Of a stretch of DNA of 64,000 nt, positions 28,902 through 52,386 are shown piece by piece. The stretch comes from an uncultured Rhodospirillales bacterium. GTDB lineage: Bacteria > Pseudomonadota > Alphaproteobacteria > Rhodospirillales > UBA2165. Position numbers and translations under genes: made by a program. The stretch covers positions 1,453,099 to 1,517,098 of the forward strand of contig CAJXKD010000001.1 in NCBI GenBank assembly GCA_913055735.1. Reading direction: 5' to 3'. The notes under the pieces are model-generated. The model had not been told where the DNA came from and did not search any database. It was given only the letters and a program-made list of their open reading frames with translations. Numbering within the stretch: the first letter of the stretch is position 1; every line of letters starts with the position of its first letter.

Positions 28902-28913
28902 GCCCGACCGTTC

Positions 28914-29777: not shown

Positions 29778-29831
29778 GCTTCACCTCTTGCTTTGCCTCA
29801 AACGGCGGCTGTTCGTGCGTTCTCTTTACAC

Positions 29832-29864
29832 TTGACATATATTCTAATTTGCATATATTTGCAA
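29832..29864. promoter_or_regulatory. face-to-face overlapping divergent promoters and probable operator (blh-like gene <-> arsR-ygaP-sulP)
   Basis: Plus strand: TTGACA(29832-37)-N16-TATATT(29854-59). Minus strand: TTGCAA(29864-59)-N17-TATATG(29841-36). CATATATT occurs twice, 16 bp apart. Confidence 0.4.
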
Positions 29865-29866
29865 GT

Positions 29867-30214
29867 ATGATTATTGATCGTATGGAGCGGACGGCCGATC
29901 AGATTAGCGACCTGATGAAAGTCCTTTCTAATCAGACGCGGCTCCTGATTTTGTGCCAATTGGTGGACGGTGAAAAGTCTGTCGGCGAATTGGCGCATCT
30001 TCTGAATGCCCGCGAACAGGCGGTATCGCAACAGTTGGCCTTGCTGCGCAAGGACGGCTTGGTGCGGGGCCGGCGGCAGGGACAGGTGGTGTTCTATTCC
30101 GTCGCCCGCGACGACGTCGCGCCTTTAATGAATTTTCTTCACGACACATATTGTATGGTGCCCCCACATTCCTTGCAGGCGCCTTCCCCAAAGGAGAATA
30201 AACATGTCCGATAA
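29867..30214 (+). CDS. ArsR/SmtB-family regulator, two-Cys BigR/SqrR-like (copy 1)
   Basis: ORF 29849 (TTG)..30214 trimmed to ATG 29867 (MIIDRMERT...). It has a wHTH (SVGELAHLLNAREQAVSQQLALLRKDGLV). Cys30 (LILC) and Cys96 (TYC) are 66 residues apart. Confidence 0.85.
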   Translation: MIIDRMERTADQISDLMKVLSNQTRLLILCQLVDGEKSVGELAHLLNAREQAVSQQLALLRKDGLVRGRRQGQVVFYSVARDDVAPLMNFLHDTYCMVPPHSLQAPSPKENKHVR

Positions 30215-30767: not shown

Positions 30768-30789
30768 ATAGCGCGGCGGGGCGCCCATT

Positions 30790-35702: not shown

Positions 35703-37234
35703 CCGATATCTCGCACTGGCTGAAAACGCATGCGGCCTTCGATCCGGAAAAGGTCGCACTGCGTCATGCCGGCGGCGAGGAAACCTACGCGCAGTTTGCT
35801 GATCAGGTTCGATGTCATGCGGCCATGCTGCAGCACGGGCTCGGCATCGGGCGCGGCGATCGTATTGCCTATCTCGGCCCAAATACCGCCGACTTCCTGT
35901 TTCTGTTTTTCGCCGCTGCACGCCTCGGCGCGATGTTTCTACCGCTCAATTGGCGCCTGGCACCGGGGGAACATGCCTATATCATCGCCGATGCGTCACC
36001 CAAGGCGGTGTTCTGCGATGCCAGTTTCATCGAGCATACGGACACTTTTCGGGGCCGGTATCCGACGATCGCCTTTGTCGATTGCAACGGCGGGACCGAC
36101 GGATGGAACTCTTTACGCGGCCTGCTCGATGACACGTCTGGCCAGGACGTGCCCCGATTGGGCGATCTCGCCGATCCCCTGTTGCTGGTCTATACATCAG
36201 GCACTACAGGACGCCCCAAAGGCGCGGTCCTCACCCAAAATGCGGTGCAGGTCAACGCGCTCAATAGCCTCCATATGCACGATCTGCGCAGCGACGACCG
36301 CATCCTCACGATGATCCCGTTGTTTCATGTGGGCGGACTTAATATTCACACGACACCCGCCTTCTATGCCGGCGCAACGGTGACCTTGCATGAACGGTTC
36401 GATCCCGGGATGGCGCTCAAGACTATCGAAGAAGAAAAAATTACCCTCACCGTTATGGTGCCGGCCGTCATTCAGGCGGCGATGAAACACCCAAAATGGG
36501 ACGCGGCCAATCTGTCGTCGTTGCGGATGCTGACCACCGGCTCGTCAATCGTGCCCTTGCCGCTGATCCAGGCGTTCCATGACCTTGGTGTTCCCGTGGT
36601 ACAGGTCTATGGCGCGACGGAAACAGCGCCCGTGGCGATATACCAGCGGGCCGCGGATGGGTTCCGCAAGCCCAGTTCGACCGGGAAGGCAGCGCTTCAC
36701 TGCGACGTACGGGTCGTAGACGACAACGGCCACGATGTGGCGCCCGGCGTATCGGGCGAGATCTGGGTGCGGGGCGGCAATATCCTGCGCGAATACTGGA
36801 ATAATCCCGACGCGACGGCGGCAGCCTTGACCGATGGTTGGTTCCATACCGGTGACGTCGGTTATCTGGATGAGGAAGGCGACTATTTCATCAATGACCG
36901 CAAGAAAGACGTGATTATCTCGGGCGGTGAAAACATTTATCCAGCCGAGGTGGAAGCGGTGCTACACGAAATGACGGAAATTGCCGATGCGGCGGTTGTC
37001 GGCCGAGCCGATGACCGGTGGGGAGAAGTACCAATTGCTGTCGTCGAAGCAAAGGAAGGTGCGCAGATCGACGTGGCCGCGATCCTCGGGCGTTTCGATG
37101 GTGTGCTGGCGCGCTTCAAGCATCCCAAGGACATCATCGTCGTAGACGCACTGCCGCGGAATGCCATGGGCAAGGTGCTGAAATACGAAGTGCGGGGCCT
37201 GGCGGTGAAAAGCCCGGATTACGCTGGGCAATAG
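35699..37234 (+). CDS. AMP-forming acyl-CoA ligase (ANL superfamily)
   Basis: ORF 35609..37234 trimmed to ATG 35699 (ATGA overlap with the ACAD stop). Motifs LLVYTSGTTGRPKG, YGATE, GWFHTGD and ISGGENIYPAEVE are present. Confidence 0.9.
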   Translation: MTDISHWLKTHAAFDPEKVALRHAGGEETYAQFADQVRCHAAMLQHGLGIGRGDRIAYLGPNTADFLFLFFAAARLGAMFLPLNWRLAPGEHAYIIADASPKAVFCDASFIEHTDTFRGRYPTIAFVDCNGGTDGWNSLRGLLDDTSGQDVPRLGDLADPLLLVYTSGTTGRPKGAVLTQNAVQVNALNSLHMHDLRSDDRILTMIPLFHVGGLNIHTTPAFYAGATVTLHERFDPGMALKTIEEEKITLTVMVPAVIQAAMKHPKWDAANLSSLRMLTTGSSIVPLPLIQAFHDLGVPVVQVYGATETAPVAIYQRAADGFRKPSSTGKAALHCDVRVVDDNGHDVAPGVSGEIWVRGGNILREYWNNPDATAAALTDGWFHTGDVGYLDEEGDYFINDRKKDVIISGGENIYPAEVEAVLHEMTEIADAAVVGRADDRWGEVPIAVVEAKEGAQIDVAAILGRFDGVLARFKHPKDIIVVDALPRNAMGKVLKYEVRGLAVKSPDYAGQ

Positions 37235-37515
37235 TTCTTGTGCAGAAAGCGTAAGAGCTTGGAGATCTTCTTTTTGGCCAGCGAATAATAAATGGTCTGC
37301 CCGTCGCGGCGGGTTTTGACCAAACCGTCCTTGCGCAGCAGAGCGAGCTGCTGGGACATGGCCTGTTCGCGAACGTCGAGCAACTTGGCCAATTCGCCGA
37401 CGGAAGATTCCCCTTCGACAAGCCGGCATAGGATCAACAGCCGATTGCGGTTGGACAGAACCTTCATAAGGTCCGAAACCTCCTCAGCGGATTTTTGCAT
37501 GTCTTTTAGGTTCAT
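37219..37515 (-). CDS. ArsR/SmtB-family regulator, two-Cys BigR/SqrR-like (copy 2)
   Basis: ORF 37219..37551 starts at a TTG. I trimmed it to ATG 37515 (MNLKDMQKS...), which aligns residue-for-residue with copy 1, including Cys30 (LILC) and Cys96 (NYC). Confidence 0.8.
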   Translation of the reverse strand: MNLKDMQKSAEEVSDLMKVLSNRNRLLILCRLVEGESSVGELAKLLDVREQAMSQQLALLRKDGLVKTRRDGQTIYYSLAKKKISKLLRFLHKNYCPA

Positions 37516-37601
37516 ATTTGCGAACCTATGATGATATCTATTTTCCGTCAAGCCGGATTGGTTGCGAAGCTCAGATTTTCAGGCCTCCGTTGAAAAAATC
37601 C

Positions 37602-37619: not shown

Positions 37620-37686
37620 CGGTTAAAAGTCATTGTCCGCAAAATCGAGCCAAATTGCAGACTGCGGTCTGGGAGGACAGTGCGCC

Positions 37687-38844: not shown

Positions 38845-38866
38845 ATCGCTTGGGAAGGAGGCATAG

Positions 38867-41040: not shown

Positions 41041-41975
41041 TGACCGACGTACATTTCCAACGCATGAAGGATCTTCCCTCGACGCATTTGCTTGGAGCTG
41101 GAACGGCCATGTGCGCCGGCTGCGGCGGCCTCGAGATGATCAAGGAGGTCTACGACGTCCTCGGCGAGAACACCGTGTTCGTCAATGCGGCGGGCTGCAT
41201 GACTTTGTTGTCGGTCTATCCGTTTACGCCGTTTCGAGGCTCTTGGCTCTACACCGCGATGGCGTCGTCGCCGGCGGGCGCGCAGGGCGTGCGCGATGCC
41301 CTCGATATCCTCAAAGCCAACGGCCGCATGACCGAGGAAGAAGACCTCGAGGTGGTGGTCCTTTCCGGCGATGGCTCGGCGTCGGGCATGGGCTTGTCGG
41401 CGACGTCGGGGGCGATCGATCGCGGCCTCGATTTCATTTATCTCTGTTACGACAACGAAGGCTACGGCAATACCGGCCAGCAAACGTCACCGGAATCGCC
41501 GCACGGTGCGCGTACCGCGACGGACGCCGTCGGTCCCGGCAACATCGGCTACAAGAAAGACTTGTTCTCCATCTGGGTAGCCAACAAACCCGCTTATGCC
41601 GCGACAGTCGTTGGCGCCGAACCACTCGATCTCGCCCGCAAGATCGAAAAGGCACACGAACTCGAGGGACCACGGCTTATTCTATCATTGGCGCCCTGCC
41701 CGACCGGCTGGGGCTATGATCCCGCGCATACCGTCGAAATTGGCCGCTTGGCGGTGAAAACCGGCGTTTGGCCGCTGAAGGAATATGTCGACGGCAAAGT
41801 CGTGCATACGCGCCATCCCGGAAAACGAACGCCGGTCGAAGCCTACCTCGAGACCCAGGATCGTTTCCGCCATCTGTTTGAACCGGTGCGCAACGACAAG
41901 GTGATCGCCGAAATTCAGGCGCGGGTAGACGCCTATTGGGCCGAGGTGGACGTGGACGATGGCACAAAAGCCTGA
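41040..41975 (+). CDS. 2-oxoacid:ferredoxin oxidoreductase, beta (TPP-binding) subunit
   Basis: MCAGCGG (cluster Cys), GDGSASGMG...YDNEGYGNTGQQ (TPP motif). The start overlaps the alpha stop (GTGATG). Confidence 0.85.
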   Translation: MTDVHFQRMKDLPSTHLLGAGTAMCAGCGGLEMIKEVYDVLGENTVFVNAAGCMTLLSVYPFTPFRGSWLYTAMASSPAGAQGVRDALDILKANGRMTEEEDLEVVVLSGDGSASGMGLSATSGAIDRGLDFIYLCYDNEGYGNTGQQTSPESPHGARTATDAVGPGNIGYKKDLFSIWVANKPAYAATVVGAEPLDLARKIEKAHELEGPRLILSLAPCPTGWGYDPAHTVEIGRLAVKTGVWPLKEYVDGKVVHTRHPGKRTPVEAYLETQDRFRHLFEPVRNDKVIAEIQARVDAYWAEVDVDDGTKA

Positions 41976-43680
41976 TTCCCATCCGGACAAACTGACCAAG
42001 AGCTACTGCCATGTGGGCGGTGACCTTCCGCTTCTGGGCGACACCATCGACGAATGGTTCAAGAAAATCGTCGCACAGTTCCCCGACCGCGACGCCATCG
42101 TTTGCCGTCACCAAGACCGGTGCCTGACCTATCGCGAATTCGACGAGAAGATCGATGCAGCGGCAAAAGGGTTGCTGGGTCTGGGTTTCGCGCGCGGCGA
42201 CCGGATCGGTGTTTGGTCCACCGACAATATCGAATGGCTGATCCTCCAGATGGCGACGGCCCGCATTGGTGCCGTTCTGGTCAATATCAATCCGGCCTAC
42301 CGGCCCCGTGAGCTGGCCTATGCGCTGCAGACATCCGAAGTACAGGGCCTGTTCGTGATCCCGGCATTCAAGAGCAGCGACTATGTCGCGATGCTGCTCG
42401 AAATCATGCCGGAATTAAAAACGGCGGGTGAACCCGAATTCGAAGCCGAATTTCCCCATCTACGCCGCGTGGTGATTTTCGATCCCGCCTGTCCTGACGC
42501 GACGCATGCGCCCGCCGAAGGCTTCGTGACGTGGCAACGGTTTCTGAACGTCGGCCAAACCATCTCTTCTGCCTTGTACCATCAAGCAACCACGGGCCTC
42601 GATGCCGATGACGACATCAATATCCAATACACATCGGGCACGACTGGATTTCCCAAGGCTGTGGTGCTGACCCACCATAATATTCTCAACAACGCCTATT
42701 TTACGGCGCGGGCCATGCGCTTCACCGAACAGGATCGGCTTTGTGTGCCGGTGCCGTTCTATCATTGCTTCGGCATGGTGTTGTCCAACCTGTTATGCTT
42801 TTCCGTCGGCGCCTGCCTGGTGATCCCCGCCGAGCACTTCGATCCTTTGGCGGTGCTGGAAGCGATCGATGCGGAAAAATGCACCGCGTTGCATGGTGTG
42901 CCGACCATGTTCATCGCCGAACTGGAGCATCCCCGGTACGCGGAGTTCGACCTTTCCAGCCTTCGCACGGGCATTATGGCCGGCGCGCCGTGCCCGCCCG
43001 AGTTGATGACACGGGTGATGAAGGACCTGCATTGCCCCGAAATTCTGATCGGCTATGGCCAGACAGAAGCATCGCCGATCACCCATTTGACCCGTCCCGA
43101 CGACAGTTTGGAGCGGCGCACCGAAACCGTCGGCACGAACCTGCCTCATCAGGAAGTGAAGATCATCGATCCCGACGGGCGTACGCTGCCCATCGGCGAT
43201 ATCGGCGAAGTCTGCTTTCGCGGCTATCACGTGATGCGTGGTTATTACGGCAATGAAGAAGCGACGGCCAAGACCATTGATTCCGCCGGGTGGCTTCATT
43301 CCGGCGATCTCGGCGCCATGGACGCGGATGGCTACGTGCGGATTACCGGCCGCCTCAAGGATATGATCATCCGCGGTGGCGAAAATATCTATCCGGCGGA
43401 GATCGAAGCCTTTTTGTTTACTCATCCGAAGATCGCACAAGTCGCGGTATTCGGCGTGCCGGACGAACGGATGGGTGAAGAGGTTGCCGCCTGGGTTCAA
43501 TTGCACGAAGGCAAAACGATGACGGCGGAGGAACTAACGAATTTTTGTGCTGGCGAGATCGCGCATTTCAAAGTTCCCAAGACCATCCGTTTCGTCGATG
43601 GGTTCCCCATGACGGTAACCGGCAAGCTTCAAAAATTCCGCATGCGCGAAATTATGGCGGAAGAACGCGGCGCGGCTTAA
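41959..43680 (+). CDS. AMP-forming acyl-CoA synthetase (ANL superfamily, medium/branched-chain-like)
   Basis: 573 aa with IQYTSGTTGFPKAV, GYGQTE, GWLHSGD and IIRGGENIYPAEIE. The start overlaps the beta-subunit gene by 17 nt. Confidence 0.9.
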   Translation: MAQKPDSHPDKLTKSYCHVGGDLPLLGDTIDEWFKKIVAQFPDRDAIVCRHQDRCLTYREFDEKIDAAAKGLLGLGFARGDRIGVWSTDNIEWLILQMATARIGAVLVNINPAYRPRELAYALQTSEVQGLFVIPAFKSSDYVAMLLEIMPELKTAGEPEFEAEFPHLRRVVIFDPACPDATHAPAEGFVTWQRFLNVGQTISSALYHQATTGLDADDDINIQYTSGTTGFPKAVVLTHHNILNNAYFTARAMRFTEQDRLCVPVPFYHCFGMVLSNLLCFSVGACLVIPAEHFDPLAVLEAIDAEKCTALHGVPTMFIAELEHPRYAEFDLSSLRTGIMAGAPCPPELMTRVMKDLHCPEILIGYGQTEASPITHLTRPDDSLERRTETVGTNLPHQEVKIIDPDGRTLPIGDIGEVCFRGYHVMRGYYGNEEATAKTIDSAGWLHSGDLGAMDADGYVRITGRLKDMIIRGGENIYPAEIEAFLFTHPKIAQVAVFGVPDERMGEEVAAWVQLHEGKTMTAEELTNFCAGEIAHFKVPKTIRFVDGFPMTVTGKLQKFRMREIMAEERGAA

Positions 43681-43698
43681 ATATACCTTCCGTCTGGC

Positions 43699-43739
43699 GC
43701 AAATATATACTTGCGAAGGTATGAAGGTAAGAATATATT
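43699..43739 (+). promoter_or_regulatory. candidate sqr promoter (TTGCGA-N17-TATATT) overlapped by near-palindrome GCAAATATATACTTGC
   Basis: -35 at 43711-16 and -10 at 43734-39. The 16-bp element at 43699-43714 is 14/16 self-complementary. Further ATATATT cores occur at 43733-39 and 43784-90. Confidence 0.35.
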
Positions 43740-43855
43740 ATTAGCTGATTATACGCCTTGTGACCGCGCCGCGCGGACCAAACATATATTAATAAGCCTC
43801 ATTTTGAGGTGCGCGACGATGGGATGGGGGAGCCTTCCGGGAAAGGAGTCTGAAC

Positions 43856-45145
43856 ATGTCTCACATCGTCATTCTAGGGGCCGGTCTGGGTGGTATCCCC
43901 ATGGCCTATGAAATGCGCGCGCAACTCGGCAAGGAAGATCGTCTGACGGTCATTTCCGACCGTGACCATTTTCAGTTCACACCGTCCAATCCGTGGCTCG
44001 CCGTCAATTGGCGGAAACCCGACCAAATAACAGTCAAGCTCGAGCCTATTTTCAAAAAACGCAAAATAGGATTCCATTCGGTCGGTGCCAAAAGGGTCGT
44101 GCCTGAGAAAAACCAAGTTGAGCTCAACGATGGCCAAGTTGTCGATTACGACTATCTCGTGATCGCAACAGGGCCCGAACTCGCCTTCGACGAGATCGAC
44201 GGGTTGGGACCGCATACCGGCTTCACCCAATCGATCTGTACGGTTGAACATGCCACGACGGCATCGGAGGCCTGGGAAAAGTTCGTCAAAAATCCGGGGC
44301 CCATCATCATCGGTGCGGTGCAGGGGGCGTCCTGCTTCGGCCCTGCTTACGAGTTTGCGTTCATCGTCGATACGGAGTTGCGCCGCCGCAAGCTGCGTGA
44401 CCAGGTGCCCATTACTTATGTAACTCCGGAGCCCTACATCGGACATTTGGGCTTGGACGGGGTCGGCGATACCAAGTCGATGTTGGAATCCGAATTCCGC
44501 CAGCGCCACATCAAATGGATCACCAACGCCAGCGTCGAAAAGGTCGCCGATGGCACCATGACCGTGGTTGAACACAACGCAGATGGCGAAGAAAAAGAAC
44601 GTCACGACCTGCCCTTCGGTTACAGCATGATGCTGCCGGCGTTCCGCGGCATTCCGGCTGTGTTCGGTATTGAGGGGCTGACCAATCCGCGCGGTTTCAT
44701 CACCATCGACGAGTTCCAGCGGAACCAAAAGTATCAGAACGTGTACTCGGTGGGTGTCTGCGTCGCCATCGCGCCGCCGGAGGCGACCCCTGTCGCCACT
44801 GGCGTTCCCAAGACCGGGTTTATGATCGAAAGCATGGTGACGGCCGCCGTGCATAACATTCGCCAGGCAATGGATGGTAAGGATCCAACGCATAAAGCCA
44901 CCTGGAATGCCCTTTGCCTCGCCGATTTCGGCGACACGGGCGTGGCCTTCCTCGCCATGCCTCAAATTCCGCCACGCAACGTCAGCTGGGCGTCCGAAGG
45001 CAAATGGGTCCATCTCGCCAAGATCGCGTTCGAGAAATACTTTTTGCGCAAGGTGCGGACGGGTAACGTCGATCCCATCGTCGAGAAGTACGTACTCAAG
45101 CTGCTCGGCATTGATAAACTCAAGACACCGGCGCCCGGCGAGTAA
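43856..45145 (+). CDS. sqr: sulfide:quinone oxidoreductase (type-I-like SQR)
   Basis: 429 aa. FAD fold is IVILGAGLGG. Three Cys sit in SQR-like contexts (QSICTVEH, GASCFGPAYE, NALCLADFGD). RBS is AAGGAG. Confidence 0.85.
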   Translation: MSHIVILGAGLGGIPMAYEMRAQLGKEDRLTVISDRDHFQFTPSNPWLAVNWRKPDQITVKLEPIFKKRKIGFHSVGAKRVVPEKNQVELNDGQVVDYDYLVIATGPELAFDEIDGLGPHTGFTQSICTVEHATTASEAWEKFVKNPGPIIIGAVQGASCFGPAYEFAFIVDTELRRRKLRDQVPITYVTPEPYIGHLGLDGVGDTKSMLESEFRQRHIKWITNASVEKVADGTMTVVEHNADGEEKERHDLPFGYSMMLPAFRGIPAVFGIEGLTNPRGFITIDEFQRNQKYQNVYSVGVCVAIAPPEATPVATGVPKTGFMIESMVTAAVHNIRQAMDGKDPTHKATWNALCLADFGDTGVAFLAMPQIPPRNVSWASEGKWVHLAKIAFEKYFLRKVRTGNVDPIVEKYVLKLLGIDKLKTPAPGE

Positions 45146-45163
45146 GGTCCGGAGAAAGAAAGA

Positions 45164-46153
45164 ATGTATCGAATCTTTCGTTTTGGACGACGGCTCGCCA
45201 GCGCCTTGGCCATGTTTTTCGTGCTGGCTCATGGCGCTGTCGCGGCGGAAACCTTCGCCGTTACGGTGTCGCAGATCGACGACCGTAAAGCCGTATTTGC
45301 TACCGTGCAAAGCGTCGATCAGACCGTTGCCCGAACTCAGATCGGTGGCACTATCCGAGAGCTGACAGTTGATGAGGGGGCCCCCGTTTTTCACGGGCAG
45401 ATCATCGCTCGTGTCCACGATCCGAAGCTGGCGTTGCAGATATCGGCGCTTCAGGCACGCAAAAAATCCCTAGAGGCCCAACTCAAACTCGCGACCATTG
45501 AAATGGAGCGGGCACGTGATCTGCGCCGTAGCGGCGTGGGAAGCCAAGCGCGCCTTGACGACGCACAAACCCAACTCGACGTGGTGACGTCCGATCTTGC
45601 GGCGTTAAAAGCCGAGATCAAAGTCATTGAGCAACAAGTAACCGAAGGCGACGTGCTGGCACCAACGGACGGGCGTGTTCTGAAGGTGCATGTCACCGAC
45701 GGTAGTGTCGTGCTTCCAGGCGACATCGTCGCGACCATCGCAACCGAGACTTATATACTGCGTCTTCACCTGCCCGAGCGGCACGCGCGGTATATTTCGC
45801 CCGACGACCGCGTCCTCGTCGGCACGCGGGGCATGGAAACGGTCGCGCAGGATCTGGTCGAAGGCCGTGTCCGCCAGGTTTATCCCGAAATGGAAGATGG
45901 CCGTGTCGTTGCCGATGTGGAGGTTCACGGCCTTGGCGATTTCTTCGTCGGGGAACGCACTCGCGTTTATGTGGCGACCGGCAAGCGCGAGGCTATCATC
46001 GTGCCCGAGGGCTATATTTATCAGCGTTTCGGCGTCAGCTTCGCCCGTCTCGAGAACGGCAAGGAAGTGGCGGTTCGGGTCGGTTTGCCGGTAGACGGCG
46101 GCCTTGAAATCCTCGCCGGCTTGCGTCCCGGAGACGTTTTGGTGCGTCCATGA
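45164..46153 (+). CDS. RND efflux periplasmic adaptor (MFP/HlyD family)
   Basis: Signal/anchor, coiled-coil segment (LQARKKSLEAQLKLATIEMERARDL...), and beta-barrel C-terminal part. It begins 18 nt after the sqr stop. Confidence 0.85.
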   Translation: MYRIFRFGRRLASALAMFFVLAHGAVAAETFAVTVSQIDDRKAVFATVQSVDQTVARTQIGGTIRELTVDEGAPVFHGQIIARVHDPKLALQISALQARKKSLEAQLKLATIEMERARDLRRSGVGSQARLDDAQTQLDVVTSDLAALKAEIKVIEQQVTEGDVLAPTDGRVLKVHVTDGSVVLPGDIVATIATETYILRLHLPERHARYISPDDRVLVGTRGMETVAQDLVEGRVRQVYPEMEDGRVVADVEVHGLGDFFVGERTRVYVATGKREAIIVPEGYIYQRFGVSFARLENGKEVAVRVGLPVDGGLEILAGLRPGDVLVRP

Positions 46154-49100
46154 AGCTGGGAATCTCGGGCGGGATCACCCGCGCTTTTATCCAATCACCG
46201 CTGACCCCGCTGTTGATGATCGCGGCATTCCTGATGGGTGGGATCGCGCTCTGGGATCTTCCGCGTGAAGAGGAACCGCAGATCAGCGTGCCCATGGTCG
46301 ACATCATGGTCGAGGCCCCCGGTTTGCGCGCCGTCGACGCTGTCGAATTGGTGACGGAGCCGCTGGAAGACATCGTCAAGGGCATTGACGCGGTCGAGCA
46401 TGTGTACTCCCGCACCGAAGACGACCGCGTCCTCGTAACTGCGCGCTTTTTTGTCGGCACCGATGAAGACCGAGCCATCTTGCGGGTTCACGAAGACGTC
46501 CGCGCCAACCTCAACCGGATTCCCGTCGGCATTCCAGAGCCGCTGATCATCGGGCGCGGCATCAATGATGTCGCGATCATCACACTGACCTTGTTTCCCA
46601 AGGACGCCACCGATGACCGATGGACCGACAACACGCTTTACCGCCTCGCCGACGAGTTACAACACGAATTGATCAAGGTGAAGGATTCCGGCCTTACCTA
46701 TATTGTTGGTGGCCGGCCCGATCAAATCCGGATCGAGCCCGATCCGGAGCGGCTGTCGCTCTATGGCATCACCCTCAATCAACTCGTCGAAAAGGTGCGC
46801 AACGCCAATCGCTCCTTCCTCGCGGGGGCGTTGCGCGAAACCAATGCCGAGGTGCCCGTGTTTGCCGGGCAGACCCTGCGCGGCGTACCCGATGTCGGTT
46901 TGCTCACGATTACCAGCCGTGACGGTCGGCCGGTCTACGTCAAGGATGTGGCGAATATCGTTGTCGGCGCCGAGCCGCCCGACAGCCGGGCTTGGCATTT
47001 GACGCCGACCCTCGACGGTTTCGACCGCCGCCCGGCGGTGACCATCGCGTTCGCCAAGCGCCAAGGGGCCAATGCCGTTACCGTCTCCGAGGAACTGCTC
47101 GCCCGGCTCGACATGGTCCGGGAACGCCTCTTGCCGGAGGGCGTCGAAGTCGCGGTCACCCGCAACTACGGCGAGACGGCCCGCGACAAAGCGGACGAGT
47201 TGCTGTCACACCTTCTCGGCGCCACGGTGGTGATCGTTCTGATCATCGCCGTGTTTATCGGCTGGCGCGAGGGCATCGTGGTCATGGTGGTGATCCCCGC
47301 GACCATCCTGCTGACCTTCTTCTCGGCGTGGCTGATGGGCTTCACTATCAACCGGGTCAGTCTGTTCGCGCTCATTTTCGCCATCGGTATTCTGGTCGAC
47401 GACGCCATCGTGGTGGTGGAGAACATCGTCCGCCATTGGCATATGGACGACGACCGTAGCATCGTCGCCGCCGCTATCGACGCGGTGGCCGAAGTCGGCA
47501 ACCCGACGATCATCGCGACGTTGACGGTCATTTCCGCGCTGCTGCCCATGATGTTTGTTTCCGGCCTCATGGGCCCCTATATGAGCCCCATTCCCGCCAA
47601 CGCGTCGGCGGCAATGGTGTTCTCCTTCTTCGTGGCCGTCGTCATCACGCCGTGGCTTCTCGTCAAGCTGCATGGCCTGATGTCGCGCGGCAAAAAGAAA
47701 GACGGGCATGCCGCCGAGGAGGAAAACGCCCTCGGCCGGATCTACCGGGGTTTGGCGCGGCCCCTGGTCAAAGGCCGCGCCCCGTCACTGCTGTTCCTGT
47801 TGATCGTGGCGGTGGCGACGGTGGCCTCCATGGGACTGTTCGTCAGCAAGGATGTCGTCGTCAAACTGCTGCCCTTCGACAACAAATCCGAACTTCAGGT
47901 GGTTGTCGATCTTCCCGAGGGCAGCAGTTTGGAAGCGACCGAACGTACCTTGATGGCGGCCGCCGACCGGCTGGTCACGATCCCGGAACTTTCGAACATT
48001 CAGCTGTATGCCGGTGCGTCGGCGCCATTCGGCTTCAATGGCCTGGTGCGGCAGTTCTATCTGCGCACCCGGGCGGAGCTCGGCGATCTGCAGGTCAACC
48101 TGCTGCCCAAGGAAGAGCGCGACCGGACGAGCCATGTGGTCGCGCTCGAGGTGCGGGAGCTTCTAAAGGATCTGCCTACGCCTGAAGGCACCAGCATCAA
48201 GGTGGTGGAAGTGCCGCCGGGCCCGCCGGTTTGGGCGACATTGCTGGCGGAAGTTTATGGCCCTGACGAACAAAGCCGCCGGTCGGCGGCCATGCAGGTC
48301 CGCGAGGCCTTCTCCGCCGTCGATTTCGTCGTCGATATCGATGACAGCTATGGCGTGCCCAGTGAGCGCTTCCGCGTCGAGATCGATCAGGAGAATCTCG
48401 AGTTTCACGGTGTCGAGGAAGCGGATGTCTATGACACCATCGCGTCCCTGATCGGCGGGGTGAGCGTCGGCTACTCTCATCGCGGCCAGGGTGCCAATCC
48501 GGTAGAGATCGCCGTTCGCCTTCCCAATAGCGACCTGTTCCCGAGCGAACGTCTGTGGTCGACGCCGGTGCCGTCGCGGGGCGGGGTGGTTGAGTTGGGC
48601 GACGTGGTGCGGCTCAAGCGCGAACGTGCGTCCTATCCCCTGTTCCGCCGCGATGGGCGCTACGCCGAAATGGTGACGGCGGAACTCGCCGGGCAGTTCG
48701 AAGCGCCGATATATGGCATGCTCGCCGTCGAGGACGTCTTGAAAAACCGTTTCGGCGATGCAGGCCCGACGATCGGCTATCACGGCCAGCCCGCCGACGA
48801 ATCCAAGATCACGCTGCTTTGGGATGGGGAGTGGGAGGTGACCTATACGACCTTCCGCGATCTCGGGGCCGCCTTCGGTGTCGCCCTATTGGCCATTTAT
48901 CTCCTGGTGGTCGGGCAATTCTCGAGCTTCCGGCTGCCCATCGTCATTATGATCCCCATCCCCTTAACCTTCACCGGCATCCTTGTCGGTCACTGGCTGG
49001 TTGGGGCGGCGTTTACCGCGACGTCCATGATCGGCTTCATCGCCCTCGCCGGTATTATGGTGCGCAACTCGATTCTGTTGGTGGATTTCATCCGTGCCCG

Positions 49101-49350
49101 TCAGGCCGAGGGGGCGCCGCTGAGGGTATGCCTGCTGGACGCGGGCGCGATCCGGGTGCGGCCGATCTTCCTCACCGCGATTACCGCCATGGTCGGCGCA
49201 GCCTTCATTCTGCTCGATCCGATCTTCCAGGGACTGGCGGTGTCGCTGCTGTTCGGTCTCGCCTCGTCGACCATCCTGACGCTGTTCGTTATTCCCGCCC
49301 TTTATGTTTGGCGGCGGGACGACGGACGCGGTTTCGGAGAAGCGGTCTAG
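46150..49350 (+). CDS. RND-family efflux permease (AcrB-like, 12 TM)
   Basis: 1066 aa with two large periplasmic loops and conserved TM4-type GILVDDAIVVVENI. ATGA overlap with the adaptor gene. Confidence 0.9.
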   Translation: MKLGISGGITRAFIQSPLTPLLMIAAFLMGGIALWDLPREEEPQISVPMVDIMVEAPGLRAVDAVELVTEPLEDIVKGIDAVEHVYSRTEDDRVLVTARFFVGTDEDRAILRVHEDVRANLNRIPVGIPEPLIIGRGINDVAIITLTLFPKDATDDRWTDNTLYRLADELQHELIKVKDSGLTYIVGGRPDQIRIEPDPERLSLYGITLNQLVEKVRNANRSFLAGALRETNAEVPVFAGQTLRGVPDVGLLTITSRDGRPVYVKDVANIVVGAEPPDSRAWHLTPTLDGFDRRPAVTIAFAKRQGANAVTVSEELLARLDMVRERLLPEGVEVAVTRNYGETARDKADELLSHLLGATVVIVLIIAVFIGWREGIVVMVVIPATILLTFFSAWLMGFTINRVSLFALIFAIGILVDDAIVVVENIVRHWHMDDDRSIVAAAIDAVAEVGNPTIIATLTVISALLPMMFVSGLMGPYMSPIPANASAAMVFSFFVAVVITPWLLVKLHGLMSRGKKKDGHAAEEENALGRIYRGLARPLVKGRAPSLLFLLIVAVATVASMGLFVSKDVVVKLLPFDNKSELQVVVDLPEGSSLEATERTLMAAADRLVTIPELSNIQLYAGASAPFGFNGLVRQFYLRTRAELGDLQVNLLPKEERDRTSHVVALEVRELLKDLPTPEGTSIKVVEVPPGPPVWATLLAEVYGPDEQSRRSAAMQVREAFSAVDFVVDIDDSYGVPSERFRVEIDQENLEFHGVEEADVYDTIASLIGGVSVGYSHRGQGANPVEIAVRLPNSDLFPSERLWSTPVPSRGGVVELGDVVRLKRERASYPLFRRDGRYAEMVTAELAGQFEAPIYGMLAVEDVLKNRFGDAGPTIGYHGQPADESKITLLWDGEWEVTYTTFRDLGAAFGVALLAIYLLVVGQFSSFRLPIVIMIPIPLTFTGILVGHWLVGAAFTATSMIGFIALAGIMVRNSILLVDFIRARQAEGAPLRVCLLDAGAIRVRPIFLTAITAMVGAAFILLDPIFQGLAVSLLFGLASSTILTLFVIPALYVWRRDDGRGFGEAV

Positions 49351-50027
49351 CTGTCCAAGTCTGGCGCTTCGAGGGGCTTCCAATCGTTGGCAAGACGTAG
49401 GGTTGCACCGGTGCGATCCTGCAGTTCGTCGAAGGTCATGCCGTCGATCATTTCGCGCACCACCATGCCGTCGGGGGTCCGGTCGATCACCGCGATATCG
49501 GTGAACACCCGGCTCACGCATTCGCGTCCCGTCAGTGGTAGCTCGGTCTTCTTGACGATCTTGGGCGAGCCGTCCTTGGAATTGTGATCGCAGATCACGT
49601 AGACCTGCTTCGCCCCGTAGGCAAGGTCCATGGCGCCGCCGACGGCTGGGGCGGTCTTTGAATTGGGCAGCCGCCAGTTGGCGAGATCGCCGTTCTCCGC
49701 AACCTCATAGGCGCCGAGGACGGTGTAATCCAGGTGCCCGCCCCGGACCATAAGGAAGGAGTCCGCGTGGTGGAAGAAGGCGCCGCCCGGGTTCATCTTA
49801 ACCGGGCGCTTGCCGGCATTGACCAGTTCCGGATCTTCGGGATCGCCCGGGTCCAGGGCCTTCATGCCGAGAATGCCGTTTTCGGAGTGGAAAATGATCT
49901 CGCGGTCATCGGGGGTTTGGTCGAGCACCGCCAGCGGGATGCCGACGCCAAGGTTGACGACCGATCCTTCGGGGATGTCGTGGGCACAGCGCCACGCCAT
50001 CTGGAGACGATTAAGGGGCTGGGTCAT
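49347..50027 (-). CDS. 3-oxoacid CoA-transferase, subunit B
   Basis: NLGVGIPLAV...FHSENGILG (catalytic Glu motif SENG). Confidence 0.9.
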   Translation of the reverse strand: MTQPLNRLQMAWRCAHDIPEGSVVNLGVGIPLAVLDQTPDDREIIFHSENGILGMKALDPGDPEDPELVNAGKRPVKMNPGGAFFHHADSFLMVRGGHLDYTVLGAYEVAENGDLANWRLPNSKTAPAVGGAMDLAYGAKQVYVICDHNSKDGSPKIVKKTELPLTGRECVSRVFTDIAVIDRTPDGMVVREMIDGMTFDELQDRTGATLRLANDWKPLEAPDLDS

Positions 50028-50698
50028 GCGTTCATGGGCTCCACTTCAACGACGCGGTCAACGAAGATGCTGGGCGTCACGATAACTTCCGGATCGAGCT
50101 CTCCGAGCTCGACGACCGTCTTGACCTGGGCGATGGTCATTTCCGCTCCCATGGCCATGACGGGGTTAAAATTCCGCATGGATTTAGTATAGACCAGATT
50201 GCCCCAGCGGTCGCCCTTGAGGCCCTTCACGAGGGCGACATCGCCGCGAATGGCGCGCTCCATAAGGTATTCCTTGCCGTCGAACTCGCGCACTTCCTTG
50301 CCCTCGGCAAGGGGTGTGCCCCAGGCGGTGCGGGTATAGAAGGCGGGAACCCCGGCAGCCCCGGCGCGGACCCGTTCGGCGATGGTCCCTTGGGGCACAA
50401 TCTCCAGGTCTATCTTGCCGGCCTCGTAAAGCTCCTCGAACACGGTGGAGCCTGGTACCCGCGGGTAGGAACAGACCAGCTTGGCGACGCAGCCCTCGGC
50501 CAGCATTCGCCCGATCCCCGCTTCGCCGGACCCGGCATTGTTGGTAACGATGGTCAAATCGCGGACTTTCCGCCGGGCCAGTGCGTCGCATAGCTCCTGC
50601 GGCTCGCCGGTCATGCCGAACCCGCCGATCAGCACGATGGAGCCGTCCTTGACGTCGGCGACGGCTTCTTCGGCACTTTCTCTTATTTTATTGATCAA
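50024..50698 (-). CDS. 3-oxoacid CoA-transferase, subunit A
   Basis: ORF 50024..50755 trimmed to TTG 50698 (INKIRESAEEAVADVKDGSIVLIGGFG) behind GGGAGGA. The start call is tentative. Confidence 0.8.
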   Translation of the reverse strand: MINKIRESAEEAVADVKDGSIVLIGGFGMTGEPQELCDALARRKVRDLTIVTNNAGSGEAGIGRMLAEGCVAKLVCSYPRVPGSTVFEELYEAGKIDLEIVPQGTIAERVRAGAAGVPAFYTRTAWGTPLAEGKEVREFDGKEYLMERAIRGDVALVKGLKGDRWGNLVYTKSMRNFNPVMAMGAEMTIAQVKTVVELGELDPEVIVTPSIFVDRVVEVEPMNA

Positions 50699-50810
50699 TT
50701 CCGATCCTCCCGTCCGTAGTCCGCACAAATTGGTAAATCGGACATGGTAAGTCAATCACCCGCGACCTATAACCGGGCCAACAATCAACAGCAGAGTGGG
50801 AGGAATCCTC

Positions 50811-51203
50811 ATGGCCGATTCCGCATCTTCGCCATTTGCCGGCGATGGGCCGGAACTGACGTTCCGCAAAGGCCTCGACTCCGGCGAGTTCAAAATCCAG
50901 AAATGTAACGATTGCGGCAGCACCATCTATTACCCGCGCGCCGTCTGCAATCATTGCGGCTCCGCCAACTACAGCTGGCACACCGCGTCGGGGAACGGCA
51001 CCGTTTATTCGACCAGCGTCGAGCGCACGCCGCCGGAAAAGGGCGGTAATCAGAACCTCGCCATCATCGATCTCGAGGAAGGCGGCCGTCTAATGAGCCG
51101 CGTCGTCGATATCGATCCCACCGAGGTCAAGATCGGCATGGCGGTCAAGGCCTTCATCGGCGAGATCGGCGGCACCAAGCTGATCCTGTTCCGTCCCGCC
51201 TAA
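50811..51203 (+). CDS. DUF35 Zn-ribbon/OB-fold protein (thiolase partner)
   Basis: CNDCGSTIYYPRAVCNHCGS is a rubredoxin-like ribbon, followed by an OB fold. ATG 50811 sits behind GGGAGGA. Confidence 0.8.
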   Translation: MADSASSPFAGDGPELTFRKGLDSGEFKIQKCNDCGSTIYYPRAVCNHCGSANYSWHTASGNGTVYSTSVERTPPEKGGNQNLAIIDLEEGGRLMSRVVDIDPTEVKIGMAVKAFIGEIGGTKLILFRPA

Positions 51204-51225
51204 GCCAGTCACAGGGAGAAGAAGA

Positions 51226-52386
51226 ATGACACATCCTCTACGCGGCTCCTCCGCCGTCGTCGGCATCGGCCTGACGGAGTTCGGCGATCTGCCTGGCAAG
51301 ACGGCCATCGAAGTATTGGCCGAAGCCTCCCACAACGCCCTCGCTGACGCAGGCCTCACCCTCCGGGACGTGGACGGGTTGTTTACCTCGTCCATGGAGC
51401 GCGTGTTCCACCCGCTTCAGGTCTGCGAATATCTCGGCGTGCAGCCCAAGGTCATCGACGGCACCAACATCGGCGGCTCGGCTTTCGTCAATTGCGTTCA
51501 TACCGCGGCGATGGCCATCGCTACCGGCGAATGTGAGGTCGCGTTGATCTGCTACGGCTCCATTTCCCGGTCCAACCGCAAGAACAAGGTGCGCGGCGCC
51601 AATCCCAACGCGGGCGCGCTGCACATGTCGGAATACCAATCGCGCCAGCCCATCGTGTCTTATGCCATGGCCGCCGCGCGGCACATGTATCAATACGGCA
51701 CGACGCGGGAGCAGTTGAGTCATGTCGCGGTTTCGGCCCGCCAATGGGCGATGAAGAACCCGCGCGCCGAGATGCGCGACCCGTTGACGGTCGAGGAAGT
51801 TTCGAACGCGCGTCTGATCTGCGATCCGTTCACGCTGTTCGATTGTTGTCTGGTGTCCGACGCGGGCGCGGCAATCGTCATGACGTCGGCAGAGCGGGCC
51901 AAGGACTTCCCGCACAAGCCGGTCTATCTGCTTGGCATCGGCACCGCCATCACCCATGACCAGATCGGCCAAATGCCCGATCTAACGGTGACGGCGGCGG
52001 CACAGTCGGGCCCGCGCGCGTTCGCGATGGCCGAGATGAAACCCTCCGACATCGACGTCGCGGAGTTCTACGACGCTTTCACCATCAATACGCTGCTGTT
52101 CCTGGAAGACCTCGGCTTCGTGCCGAAAGGCGAGGCGGGCCCCTTCGTGGCCGACGGCAATATTGCGCCCGGTGGTTCATTGCCGGTGAATACCAACGGC
52201 GGCGGGCTTTCCTGTGTGCATCCCGGCATGTACGGCATGTTCGTCACCATCGAGGCGGTCGAGCAGTTGCGTGGTGGGTGCGGCGAGCGGCAGATCGACG
52301 GCGCTCAGGTCGCGCTCGCCAACGGCAATGGCGGCGTGCTGTCGAGCCAGGTGACGGCCATCTACGGGACCGACGAGACATTGTAA
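51226..52386 (+). CDS. thiolase-fold protein (SCP-x/DUF35-associated type)
   Basis: 386 aa. It has a thiolase-like N-terminal region and C-terminal NTNGGGLSCVHPG and GNGG motifs. Confidence 0.8.
   Translation: MTHPLRGSSAVVGIGLTEFGDLPGKTAIEVLAEASHNALADAGLTLRDVDGLFTSSMERVFHPLQVCEYLGVQPKVIDGTNIGGSAFVNCVHTAAMAIATGECEVALICYGSISRSNRKNKVRGANPNAGALHMSEYQSRQPIVSYAMAAARHMYQYGTTREQLSHVAVSARQWAMKNPRAEMRDPLTVEEVSNARLICDPFTLFDCCLVSDAGAAIVMTSAERAKDFPHKPVYLLGIGTAITHDQIGQMPDLTVTAAAQSGPRAFAMAEMKPSDIDVAEFYDAFTINTLLFLEDLGFVPKGEAGPFVADGNIAPGGSLPVNTNGGGLSCVHPGMYGMFVTIEAVEQLRGGCGERQIDGAQVALANGNGGVLSSQVTAIYGTDETL

What the first reader, a model, noticed from the sequence alone, without database searches (positions are those of the whole stretch)
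43681..49350. sqr followed within 18 nt by an RND adaptor-permease pair lacking an outer-membrane factor
A type-I-like sulfide:quinone oxidoreductase is followed, with no detectable terminator, by an MFP gene with its own GGAG RBS. An ATGA-coupled 1066-aa RND permease comes next. No OMF gene follows, because the next gene is convergent.

SQR releases polysulfide/sulfane sulfur at the periplasmic face of the membrane. A dedicated RND pump in the same transcription unit suggests export or periplasmic clearance of a sulfur product (polysulfide, S0, organic persulfides). I do not know of this coupling being characterised.
Basis: inference. Interest (0 to 1): 0.65.

Follow-up and report, generated by a model that had tools for sequence, protein, structure and literature searches.

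The report
Sulfide oxidase gene fused to efflux pump
A sulfide-oxidising enzyme gene sits in one operon with a two-part efflux pump, and this pairing recurs across many bacteria under persulfide-sensing repressors, so the pump probably belongs to sulfide detoxification, although what it pumps has never been tested.

Summary
It comprises a type I sulfide:quinone oxidoreductase gene (43856-45145), an 18-nt gap with a GGAG ribosome-binding site, an RND adaptor gene (45164-46153), an ATGA-overlapped 1066-aa RND permease gene (46150-49350), and then a convergent CoA-transferase gene. There is no outer-membrane factor gene.

The linkage is not chance:
- Among 80 species-level loci holding the pump's orthologue, type I SQR lies within 3.5 kb in 35, in three different arrangements.
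- A small DUF2892/YgaP protein lies nearby in 57 loci and a two-cysteine ArsR (SqrR/BigR-type) regulator in 47.
- An SqrR-type operator (ATATTC-N8-GAATAT) precedes 41% of pump operons, against 1% of shuffled controls.
- All 18 alphaproteobacterial plasmid-borne type I sqr genes have this pump beside them.

The pump fits neither the multidrug (HAE1) nor the metal (HME) curated RND model.

Earlier papers noticed the coupling: an H2S-induced sqr-RND operon in Azospira, and RND genes next to SqrR-type regulators, including R. capsulatus SqrR. They did not identify the substrate.

My best reading is a sulfide-stress efflux system that exports SQR-derived sulfane sulfur through a TolC-like channel encoded elsewhere. 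The substrate is inferred. Regulation of this particular promoter is not shown.

The parts
43681..43855 (+). AT-rich promoter region of the operon. It has a sigma-70-like TTGCGA (43711-43716), a 17-nt spacer and TATATT (43734-43739). ATATATT boxes lie at 43702-43708, 43732-43739 and 43784-43790. The best SqrR-operator-like match lies at 43733-43752. AAGGAG lies at 43843-43848.
   Evidence: there are 9 ATATATT in the window against 2 expected, and 4 of those matches (3 sites) lie here; the operator match is 9/12 with P = 0.16, which is not significant.
43856..45145 (+). sqr: type I sulfide:quinone oxidoreductase, 429 aa
45146..45163 (+). 18-nt sqr-adaptor spacer with GGAG (45151-45154); there is no terminator
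45164..46153 (+). RND periplasmic adaptor (MFP), 329 aa. It has an N-terminal hydrophobic signal or anchor (residues about 11-29), an alpha-hairpin at 87-160, and no cysteine.
   Evidence: searches (TIGR01730 above its cutoff; closest solved structures are TriA/TriB and MexJ), and (hairpin pLDDT 82-97)
46150..49350 (+). RND permease, 1066 aa. It has a 12-TM pattern with two large periplasmic loops, the TM4 pair D417-D418, R972-N973, R1002 and T1009. It belongs to a clade that falls below both the HAE1 and HME curated cutoffs.
49347..50027 (-). Convergent 3-oxoacid CoA-transferase subunit B gene. It marks the 3' boundary of the operon, and its stop codon overlaps the permease stop.
37219..37551 (-). 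Candidate regulator ArsR2: a two-cysteine ArsR of the SqrR/BigR/HlyU type. Its likely start is the ATG at 37515. Of the window's two ArsR paralogues, this one is closer to the ArsR genes that flank the pump in other genomes. A perfect palindrome, AGGTTC-N8-GAACCT, lies at 37507-37526.
   Evidence: (34 of 42 pump-adjacent ArsRs score higher to this one)
29849..30214 (+). Candidate regulator ArsR1: a two-cysteine ArsR, 63% identical to ArsR2. It is divergent from a persulfide-dioxygenase-like MBL gene (28914-29777, -) and is followed by rhodanese-YgaP (30204-30767) and SulP-STAS (30790-32517). Its promoter carries ATATTC-N8-ATATAT (29839-29858).
   Evidence: and 86 (10/12, P = 0.012)

Best explanation
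The locus is a three-gene operon, sqr-MFP-RND, that belongs to the sulfide / reactive-sulfur stress response.

1. SQR is a peripheral membrane flavoprotein. It oxidises HS- to zero-valent (sulfane) sulfur and passes the electrons to quinone. This is established for enzymes 50% identical to it and is inferred here.
2. The adaptor and permease are co-translated from the same mRNA. This is inferred from the sequence.
3. They assemble into a proton-driven RND pump. The adaptor's alpha-hairpin docks on a TolC-like channel encoded elsewhere in the genome. This is inferred.
4. The pump removes an SQR-derived sulfane-sulfur species from the periplasm or the outer leaflet of the inner membrane to the outside. 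This keeps reactive or insoluble sulfur from building up in the envelope. Polysulfide or S8 is the most likely substrate, and organic per- or polysulfides are possible. This step is a hypothesis.
5. Expression is probably derepressed when sulfane sulfur bridges the two cysteines of an SqrR/BigR-type ArsR repressor. Two such repressors are encoded 6 and 14 kb upstream. This regulation is well supported by operator and gene-neighbourhood evidence in relatives, but it is not shown for this promoter.
For: Operon structure: an 18-nt gap with an RBS, an ATGA overlap, no terminator, and one promoter-like site upstream of sqr.

Conserved linkage:
- In 80 orthologue loci from different species, MFP-RND is always paired.
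- Type I SQR lies within 3.5 kb in 35 loci: 27 divergent, 4 upstream and co-directional, 4 downstream.
- DUF2892/YgaP is present in 57, a 2-Cys ArsR in 47, thioredoxin in 14 and an AhpD-like gene in 9.

Reverse direction: all 18 alphaproteobacterial plasmid-borne type I sqr genes have the pump within 4 kb. So do those of Aeromonas caviae and two cyanobacteria.

Regulation in relatives:
- The experimentally used SqrR operator is ATATTC-N8-GAATGT.
- Exact matches occur in only 7 loci, and all lie in pump or SQR promoters. Five of those loci have no sulfur gene nearby.
- Matches of at least 10/12 occur in 41% of pump-operon upstream regions, against 1% of composition-preserving shuffles.

The outer membrane is involved: a TolC gene sits inside the cluster in Rhizorhabdus (SQR-DUF2892-TolC), other Sphingomonadales, Chondrinema and a Legionella plasmid. 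The adaptor has a confident alpha-hairpin.

Experimental precedent: the Azospira operon with the same gene content is strongly H2S-induced and was flagged by BarSeq fitness. R. capsulatus sqrR lies next to RND genes. How R. capsulatus gets S0 outside the cell is stated to be unknown.

The permease keeps a full proton-relay set and does not fit the drug or metal subfamily models.
Against: - No substrate evidence of any kind exists.
- The permease has one cysteine and the adaptor has none, so no covalent sulfur relay is apparent.
- In 45 of 80 loci no SQR is nearby. The pump's most constant partners are DUF2892 and the regulator, so its substrate need not be the SQR product.
- The window's sqr promoter has only a non-significant operator match (9/12, P = 0.16), and its regulators are unlinked.
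- SQR sidedness is unsettled. In R. capsulatus SQR drives intracellular persulfide pools, which fits a periplasmic capture model less well.
- In Azospira, deleting the whole operon did not change the H2S oxidation rate. Tolerance and sulfur export were not measured.
Confidence: 0.5

Rival explanations
1. The pump belongs to the sulfide regulon, but it exports something other than the SQR product. Candidates are thiophilic metals or metal-sulfide complexes mobilised by sulfide, as the Azospira authors suggested, or thiol or quinone adducts formed under sulfide stress.
For: The Azospira paper proposes metal-sulfide toxicity as the reason for RND induction. ArsR-family regulators are classically metal sensors. 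More than half of the pump loci lack a nearby SQR. The CusA/CzcA model scores nearly as high as the HAE1 model (243 against 263 bits).
Against: The regulators carry the two-cysteine persulfide-sensing signature and align best to HlyU, SqrR and BigR, not to metal-site ArsRs. TM4 carries the HAE-type VDDAIVVVEN motif (motif assignment from my own knowledge). The HME cutoff is missed by a wide margin. The neighbours are sulfur-trafficking genes (rhodanese, DUF2892/YgaP, PDO, YeeE), not metal genes.
Confidence: 0.15
2. The pump is a general hydrophobic-compound or multidrug-type exporter that has simply been recruited into the SqrR/BigR regulon. On this reading it has no specific sulfur substrate. 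It could, for example, protect the envelope during sulfide stress, or handle low-molecular-weight organic persulfides coming from the cytoplasmic side.
For: The closest solved relatives of both subunits are multidrug pumps whose operons also lack an OMF gene: TriABC and MexJK. Sulfane sulfur is reported to induce multidrug regulators in other bacteria (titles). More distant homologues at 31-36% identity sit in non-sulfur contexts.
Against: The sulfur context persists down to about 34-36% identity and across Alpha- and Gammaproteobacteria, Cyanobacteria, Bacteroidota and an acidobacterial MAG. That breadth argues for a family-wide specific role. The family misses the curated multidrug cutoffs (419 against 1250 bits).
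Confidence: 0.2
3. The adjacency in this window is incidental. On this reading the pump has its own promoter inside or after sqr and is unrelated to sulfide.
For: The window's arrangement, sqr directly abutting the adaptor gene with no DUF2892 or ArsR gene between them, was not seen in any of the 80 related loci. The operator match is not significant.
Against: An 18-nt gap leaves no room for a promoter or terminator, and none was predicted. The linkage recurs in 35/80 loci and beside 21/32 plasmid-borne sqr genes, in different orders. By a rough estimate of mine, a random gene would have a single-copy sqr within 3.5 kb in well under 1% of genomes.
Confidence: 0.04

Closest known systems
Azospira suillum PS operon Dsui_3440-3443 (PMC5358917)
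   Same: It holds SQR, an RND permease and an RND adaptor in one operon. It is highly expressed under H2S and was flagged by BarSeq fitness. A DUF2892 gene elsewhere in that genome is also strongly sulfide-induced. These are the same components as the module seen here and in relatives.
   Different: It is a betaproteobacterium. Judging by the locus tags, the gene order differs, with SQR between the permease and the adaptor, and there is an extra protein of unknown function. I could not test orthology of its pump to this one because the sequence was not retrievable. The pump's function was not determined there either.
SqrR (R. capsulatus) / BigR / HlyU / YgaV two-cysteine ArsR regulons, with RND genes noted next to the regulator (PMC12423496; PMC9995734)
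   Same: Two such regulators lie in the window, with both cysteines conserved. Relatives have the regulator beside the pump and the ATATTC-N8-GAAT-type operator in front of it. R. capsulatus sqrR is itself listed as adjacent to an RND transporter.
   Different: In this window the regulators lie 6 and 14 kb away and the sqr promoter lacks a convincing operator. The published work treats the RND genes only as neighbours and gives them no function.
Type I SQR of Acidithiobacillus ferrooxidans and Aquifex aeolicus (PDB 3sz0, 3hyv)
   Same: It is 50% identical to the A. ferrooxidans enzyme over 425 aligned positions. The three catalytic cysteines and the FAD motif are conserved, and the alignment runs through the C-terminal membrane-binding region.
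   Different: I have no information on whether those model enzymes have an adjacent RND pump. Here sqr is the first gene of a pump operon.
TriABC-OpmH and MexJK-OprM/OpmH of P. aeruginosa
   Same: They are the closest solved structures to both the adaptor (TriA/B, MexJ) and, among others, the permease (TriC, MexK). They are adaptor-permease operons that borrow an OMF encoded elsewhere. That they recruit an OMF encoded elsewhere is from my own knowledge.
   Different: The similarity is remote (65 bits for the adaptor, 177-214 bits for the permease). Those are drug or biocide pumps with no sulfur context.
CusCBA-type periplasmic detoxification pumps (functional analogy only)
   Same: The concept is the same: an RND pump clears a toxic species from the periplasm across the outer membrane.
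   Different: The HME family cutoff is not met. No methionine relay is evident. The TM4 motif is HAE-like.

Membership tests
Type I sulfide:quinone oxidoreductase | N-terminal FAD-binding GxGxxG and the pyridine-nucleotide-disulfide oxidoreductase fold | tested here: met
   GAGLGG at residues 8-13; PF07992, 61 bits
Type I sulfide:quinone oxidoreductase | Three conserved cysteines (A. ferrooxidans C128, C160, C356) | tested here: met
   Cys128, Cys160 and Cys354 align to them
Type I sulfide:quinone oxidoreductase | Closer to type I structures than to other SQR types | tested here: met
   495 and 358 bits to the A. ferrooxidans and A. aeolicus enzymes, against 73 bits (A. ambivalens) and 50 bits (human). 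The NCBIfam type III selenoprotein model scores only 107 bits against a cutoff of 525.
Type I sulfide:quinone oxidoreductase | Sulfide-dependent quinone reduction; sidedness at the membrane | not testable with these tools
   This needs an enzyme assay and localisation experiments
RND permease superfamily (AcrB/AcrD/AcrF, PF00873) | Full-length match to the family model above the gathering score | tested here: met
   485 bits against a cutoff of 28, covering residues 11-1053
RND permease superfamily (AcrB/AcrD/AcrF, PF00873) | 12 TM segments with two large periplasmic loops, plus the TM4 Asp-Asp and TM10/TM11 charged relay residues | tested here: met
   The hydropathy pattern is TM1, a loop at 35-351, TM2-7, a loop at 568-903, then TM8-12. 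D417/D418, R972/N973, R1002 and T1009 are all invariant in 17 homologues. Arg stands where AcrB has Lys940; that assignment rests on motif position and my own knowledge.
HAE1 multidrug RND subfamily | Score above the curated subfamily cutoffs (TIGR00915; NF033617; NF000282) | tested here: not met
   263 against 940, 419 against 1250, and 345 against 1250 bits
HME heavy-metal RND subfamily (CusA/CzcA) | Score above the TIGR00914 cutoff | tested here: not met
   243 against 701 bits
RND periplasmic adaptor (MFP) | TIGR01730 above its cutoff; lipoyl and beta-barrel domains; N-terminal signal or anchor | tested here: met
   122 bits against 94.9; HlyD_D23, HlyD_3 and Biotin_lipoyl_2; a hydrophobic segment at 11-29
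RND periplasmic adaptor (MFP) | Alpha-helical hairpin able to reach an OMF | tested here: met
   Helices 87-122 and 128-160 have pLDDT 82-97 in a model that is otherwise poor (mean 46)
Tripartite RND efflux system | A cognate TolC-family outer-membrane factor | tested here: inconclusive
   There is none in the operon or in the 64-kb window. A TolC gene is present inside the homologous cluster in L066, L068, L072, Rhizorhabdus, Chondrinema and Legionella. The rest of this genome cannot be seen.
SqrR/BigR-type (two-cysteine ArsR) regulon | A regulator with both conserved cysteines is present | tested here: met
   Two paralogues have the ...LILC... and ...YC motifs. Their best PDB matches are HlyU, an ArsR-family regulator (6o8k-6o8o, which I take to be R. 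capsulatus SqrR) and BigR.
SqrR/BigR-type (two-cysteine ArsR) regulon | An operator (ATATTC-N8-GAATRT or a lineage variant) in the target promoter | tested here: inconclusive
   In the window's sqr promoter the best match is 9/12, P = 0.16, and ATATATT boxes are enriched. In relatives the feature is met: at least 10/12 in 41% of pump promoters against 1% of shuffles.
SqrR/BigR-type (two-cysteine ArsR) regulon | Derepression by sulfide or persulfide | not testable with these tools
   This needs qRT-PCR or EMSA

The most novel reading that the evidence does not exclude
This RND family, together with its small DUF2892 partner and a TolC-like channel, is the missing route by which zero-valent sulfur or polysulfide made by membrane-bound SQR leaves Gram-negative cells. 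That would explain extracellular sulfur deposition in organisms such as Rhodobacter capsulatus. It would also be the first RND pump with an inorganic sulfur substrate.
Probability: 0.3. Interest if true: 0.8.

Novelty: new member of a known kind. Interest (0 to 1): 0.55.

Why it matters
It is not known how sulfane sulfur or elemental sulfur produced at the inner membrane crosses the periplasm and outer membrane. The R. capsulatus literature states this explicitly.

This pump family is conserved and controlled by a persulfide-sensing regulator. It recurs beside sqr in at least four phyla and also travels on conjugative plasmids. That makes it a concrete candidate that can be tested by genetics.

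If it does export sulfur species, three things would follow:
- RND pumps would gain a new substrate class.
- Sulfide tolerance in heterotrophs would have a mechanism.
- Thousands of 'multidrug efflux' annotations in sulfide-response clusters would need changing.

If it does not, the finding remains one more example of a noticed but unexplained gene neighbourhood.

Tried and rejected
- **Source organism.** Exact look-ups of the window's permease and of its 100%-identical database copy found no contig on record. The source is therefore known only as an alphaproteobacterium, whose closest pump homologues (68-72% identical) are in Rhodospirillales-like MAGs.
- **Operator scans of the whole window.** Scanning for ATTC-N8-GAAT and for ATATTC-N8-GAATAT with up to 3 mismatches gave no enrichment over shuffles, so I do not claim an SqrR operator in the window's sqr promoter.
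- **Rhodospirillales operator variant.** The variant (TTGCTAAWTTAG-N6-CTAATATATA) is represented in the window only by a half-site-like GCTAATAATATAT.
- **First neighbourhood clustering.** merged antisense ORFs into the 'DUF2892' cluster. I redid the census with defined queries, and my early count of 38 SQR-linked loci became 35.
- **Adaptor structure.** Single-sequence AlphaFold of the adaptor was poor overall (pLDDT 46). I used only the hairpin.
- **Heavy-metal pump.** Considered and rejected: the HME cutoff is missed, TM4 is HAE-like and the neighbours are sulfur genes.
- **Chance adjacency.** Considered and rejected because the linkage is conserved.
- **Literature.** Searches for a characterised substrate found none. 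The Schutz 1999 SQR localisation paper is not held.

Full report
**1. What is in the sequence**

The region holds three co-directional ORFs:
- 43856-45145 (429 aa)
- 45164-46153 (329 aa)
- 46150-49350 (1066 aa)

The next ORF (49347-50027) lies on the opposite strand.

The first protein is a type I sulfide:quinone oxidoreductase (SQR).
- It scores 495 bits against the A. ferrooxidans enzyme (212 of 425 aligned positions identical) and 358 bits against the A. aeolicus enzyme.
- It scores only 73 and 50 bits against the A. ambivalens and human enzymes.
- It keeps the FAD motif and Cys128, Cys160 and Cys354.

The second protein passes the curated RND-adaptor model (TIGR01730, 122 bits against a cutoff of 94.9).

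The third is a full-length RND permease (PF00873, 485 bits).
- Its hydropathy pattern is the canonical 12-TM, two-loop one.
- It has an intact proton relay: D417/D418, R972/N973, R1002 and T1009, all invariant among 17 homologues.

- The sqr stop is TAA at 45143-45145. GGAG lies at 45151-45154 and the adaptor ATG at 45164.
- The adaptor and permease genes overlap in ATGA.
- No + strand terminator-like site falls between sqr and the adaptor gene.
- The only promoter-like site on the + strand lies upstream of sqr (TTGCGA-17-TATATT, 43711-43739).

The downstream convergent gene encodes 3-oxoacid CoA-transferase subunit B. No TolC-like gene was detected in the window.

**2. Is the linkage more than chance?**

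The permease has hundreds of close homologues, almost all alphaproteobacterial. A scan of one genome per species returned at least 599 matching loci, of which the best 80 were kept.

I searched those 80 loci with the window's proteins and with recurrent neighbours.
- The adaptor and permease genes are always paired.
- A type I SQR (58-68% identical) lies within 3.5 kb in 35 of 80 loci, or 29 of the 62 loci with full flanks.
- SQR appears in three arrangements: divergent upstream (27), co-directional upstream (4) and co-directional downstream (4).
- A roughly 66-aa DUF2892 / YgaP-type membrane protein, or a rhodanese-YgaP, is present in 57 loci.
- A two-cysteine ArsR regulator is present in 47, a TrxC-like thioredoxin in 14, an AhpD-like protein in 9, and TolC and persulfide dioxygenase occasionally.

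The window's own order has sqr abutting the adaptor gene with nothing between them. That order was not seen in the sample. The four co-directional relatives have DUF2892, or ArsR plus DUF2892, in between.

I then started from SQR instead. Thirty-two plasmid or chromid records carry a type I sqr. Comparing coordinates with the permease hits shows that:
- all 18 alphaproteobacterial records have the pump within 4 kb;
- Aeromonas caviae and the cyanobacteria Kovacikia and Pseudanabaena ABRG5-3 do too;
- Pseudoalteromonas, Synechocystis and Picosynechococcus do not.

Annotated examples include:
- Rhizorhabdus pIBU218, a conjugative plasmid, where SQR-DUF2892-TolC-AhpD-like is divergent from rhodanese-adaptor-permease-ArsR;
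- P. denitrificans PD1222, where the pump sits beside ArsR, a PDO-like MBL-fold gene, DUF2892, YeeE and a sulfurtransferase.

The DUF2892/ArsR context persists in permease homologues down to about 34-43% identity in Vibrio, Salinivibrio, a Legionella plasmid and a Bacteroidota plasmid. It is lost in the Polaromonas homologue (36% identical) and the Sulfurovum homologue (31%).

**3. Regulation**

The window encodes two paralogous ArsR proteins, 63% identical to each other.
- Both carry the two cysteines of persulfide sensors.
- Both align best to HlyU, SqrR and BigR.
- One (29849-30214) heads a rhodanese-YgaP and SulP operon divergent from a persulfide-dioxygenase-like gene.
- The other (37219-37551) resembles the pump-adjacent ArsRs of other genomes more closely: 34 of 42 score higher to it.

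The oligonucleotide used experimentally as an SqrR operator is cATATTC-N8-GAATGT (supplement of PMC9995734).
- Exact matches to ATATTC-N8-GAATRT occur in only 7 of the 92 loci fetched.
- Each match lies just upstream of the pump operon or of an adjacent sulfur-oxidation gene: SQR in L049, and an FAD-dependent oxidoreductase beside the pump in P. denitrificans (L085).
- Five of those loci otherwise show no sulfur gene nearby.

Scoring the best match in the 300 nt upstream of each pump operon gives at least 10/12 in 31 of 76 loci (41%). The figure is 0.5% for random windows and 1.0% for 40-nt block shuffles of the same regions. Rhodospirillales-type loci use a variant, TTGCTAAWTTAG-N6-CTAATATATA. 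At family level, control by an SqrR-type repressor is therefore well supported.

For this window the evidence is weak.
- The sqr promoter is unusually rich in ATATATT boxes. Three sites lie here, two more lie in the ArsR1 promoter, and there are 9 in the whole window against 2 expected.
- Its best operator match is only 9/12 (P = 0.16). The ArsR1 promoter reaches 10/12 (P = 0.012).

I treat regulation of this particular operon as inferred.

**4. What kind of pump?**

The permease misses every curated subfamily cutoff:
- 419 against 1250 bits for RND_permease_2;
- 263 against 940 bits for HAE1;
- 243 against 701 bits for HME.

Its best solved relatives score only about 170-240 bits. So it is not in a characterised drug or metal clade.

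The adaptor's closest solved relatives are TriA/TriB and MexJ. From my own knowledge, those pumps' operons also lack an OMF gene and borrow one encoded elsewhere. The missing OMF gene is therefore ordinary.

A single-sequence AlphaFold model is poor overall. It does give a confident two-helix hairpin at residues 87-160, which is the element that contacts TolC-type channels. TolC genes embedded in homologous clusters support a tripartite, outer-membrane-spanning assembly.

The permease has a single cysteine and the adaptor has none. Any sulfur substrate would have to be handled non-covalently.

**5. Literature**

- In Azospira suillum PS an operon encoding SQR, an RND permease, an RND adaptor and an unknown protein is highly expressed under H2S and was the single operon flagged by BarSeq fitness. 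A DUF2892 gene was among the most induced. Deleting the operon did not change the H2S oxidation rate. The authors speculated about metal-sulfide toxicity (PMC5358917).
- The Dahl laboratory noted a set of two-cysteine ArsR regulators encoded next to RND transporter genes. Their table lists R. capsulatus SqrR itself, Rhodopila, Rhodomicrobium, Rhodoplanes, R. palustris, Erythrobacter, Tsuneonella and Halorhodospira (PMC12423496).
- The SqrR work states that it is unknown how extracellular sulfur globules arise in R. capsulatus (PMC9995734).

I found no paper in the library that assigns a substrate to such a pump.

**6. Interpretation**

Shown here:
- the gene content and operon-like structure;
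- the family-wide, multi-arrangement, multi-phylum linkage of this pump to SQR, DUF2892/YgaP, rhodanese and persulfide-sensing repressors;
- strong enrichment of the operator upstream of pump operons in relatives.

Inferred:
- The pump works with an OMF encoded elsewhere.
- It is induced by sulfide in this organism.
- Its substrate is an SQR-derived sulfane-sulfur species.

The substrate inference rests on established properties. RND pumps capture substrates from the periplasm or outer leaflet. Type I SQR releases polysulfide or S0 at the membrane.

Weaknesses of that model:
- The sidedness of SQR is unsettled.
- More than half of the pump loci lack a nearby sqr.
- There is no chemical evidence at all.

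Rivals that remain open are metal or metal-sulfide export and a recruited general exporter. Coincidental adjacency is effectively excluded.

**7. Verdict**

The coupling is real, conserved and regulated. It has already been noticed in the literature but never explained.

This window adds a new member, with an unusually tight sqr-adaptor fusion, to a known but uncharacterised kind. Interest is moderate. It would be high if the pump proved to export sulfur.

Noticed in passing
window 28314-32517: A second sulfur-handling cluster: a cysteine-dioxygenase-like cupin (28314-28901, +), an MBL-fold persulfide-dioxygenase-like gene (28914-29777, -; 59-66% identical to PDO-like genes near the pump in other genomes), a two-cysteine ArsR (29849-30214, +), rhodanese-YgaP (30204-30767, +) and a SulP-STAS anion transporter (30790-32517, +). 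This is a BigR/YgaVP-like unit 14 kb upstream of sqr.
   Followed up: partly
window 37507-37526: A perfect 6-N8-6 palindrome, AGGTTC-ATATTTGC-GAACCT, overlaps the likely start codon of the second ArsR gene. Its spacing matches the SqrR operator but its half-sites differ. The sqr promoter carries the related hexamers ACCTTC (43685-43690) and a tandem GAAGGTA-T-GAAGGTA (43715-43729), at a different spacing. This is unexplained.
   Followed up: partly
window 29833-29869 and 37513-37551: Both ArsR genes have a promoter-like -35/-10 pair whose -10 element ends only about 7 nt before the likely ATG. This suggests leaderless or near-leaderless transcripts. Related loci show the same layout, with the ArsR ATG directly abutting the operator.
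   Followed up: no
window 3767-7822, especially 6610-6642: Three tandem porin genes (Porin_4; 3767-4888, 5146-6330, 6689-7822). Upstream of the third lie an ATATATT box and the window's only intergenic perfect ATTC-N8-GAAT (6627-6642). A sulfide-regulated porin is conceivable but untested.
   Followed up: no
related loci L001-L092 (e.g. L047 6820-7017, L049 6734-6931; PDEN_RS23390): A roughly 66-aa DUF2892 protein with two predicted TM helices and a conserved FTGFCP motif is the most constant neighbour of the pump (57/80 loci). It is often the gene immediately upstream of the adaptor gene. It could be a small pump subunit or a sulfur-handling partner. In the window it exists only as the C-terminal domain of rhodanese-YgaP (30540-30713).
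   Followed up: partly
L082 (Rhizorhabdus wittichii pIBU218), also Sphingomonas MM-1 and Sphingopyxis DBS4 plasmids: The whole sqr/DUF2892/TolC plus rhodanese/adaptor/permease/ArsR module is carried on plasmids; pIBU218 is typed as conjugative (MOBF/MPF_F) and carries it next to an integrase and IS6100. The module is therefore horizontally mobile.
   Followed up: no
window 49347-49350: The stop codons of the RND permease gene (+) and the convergent CoA-transferase B gene (-) overlap. That leaves no intergenic space for a terminator for either transcript.
   Followed up: no
window 37633-43680 and 49347-52386: The sqr operon is embedded in carbon-metabolism genes: Glu/Leu/Phe/Val dehydrogenase, a three-subunit 2-oxoacid:ferredoxin oxidoreductase, two acyl-CoA synthetases, 3-oxoacid CoA-transferase A/B and a thiolase-like gene. 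There is no obvious sulfur link, and this flanking differs from that of every related locus examined.
   Followed up: no
L085 9296-11021 (P. denitrificans PD1222 plasmid 1): Next to the pump there is no type I SQR. Instead there is a 449-aa FAD/NAD(P)-binding oxidoreductase with a DUF5368 partner, preceded by an exact ATATTC-N8-GAATRT operator (11203-11222). It may be a different sulfide- or persulfide-oxidising flavoprotein that fills the SQR slot.
   Followed up: no
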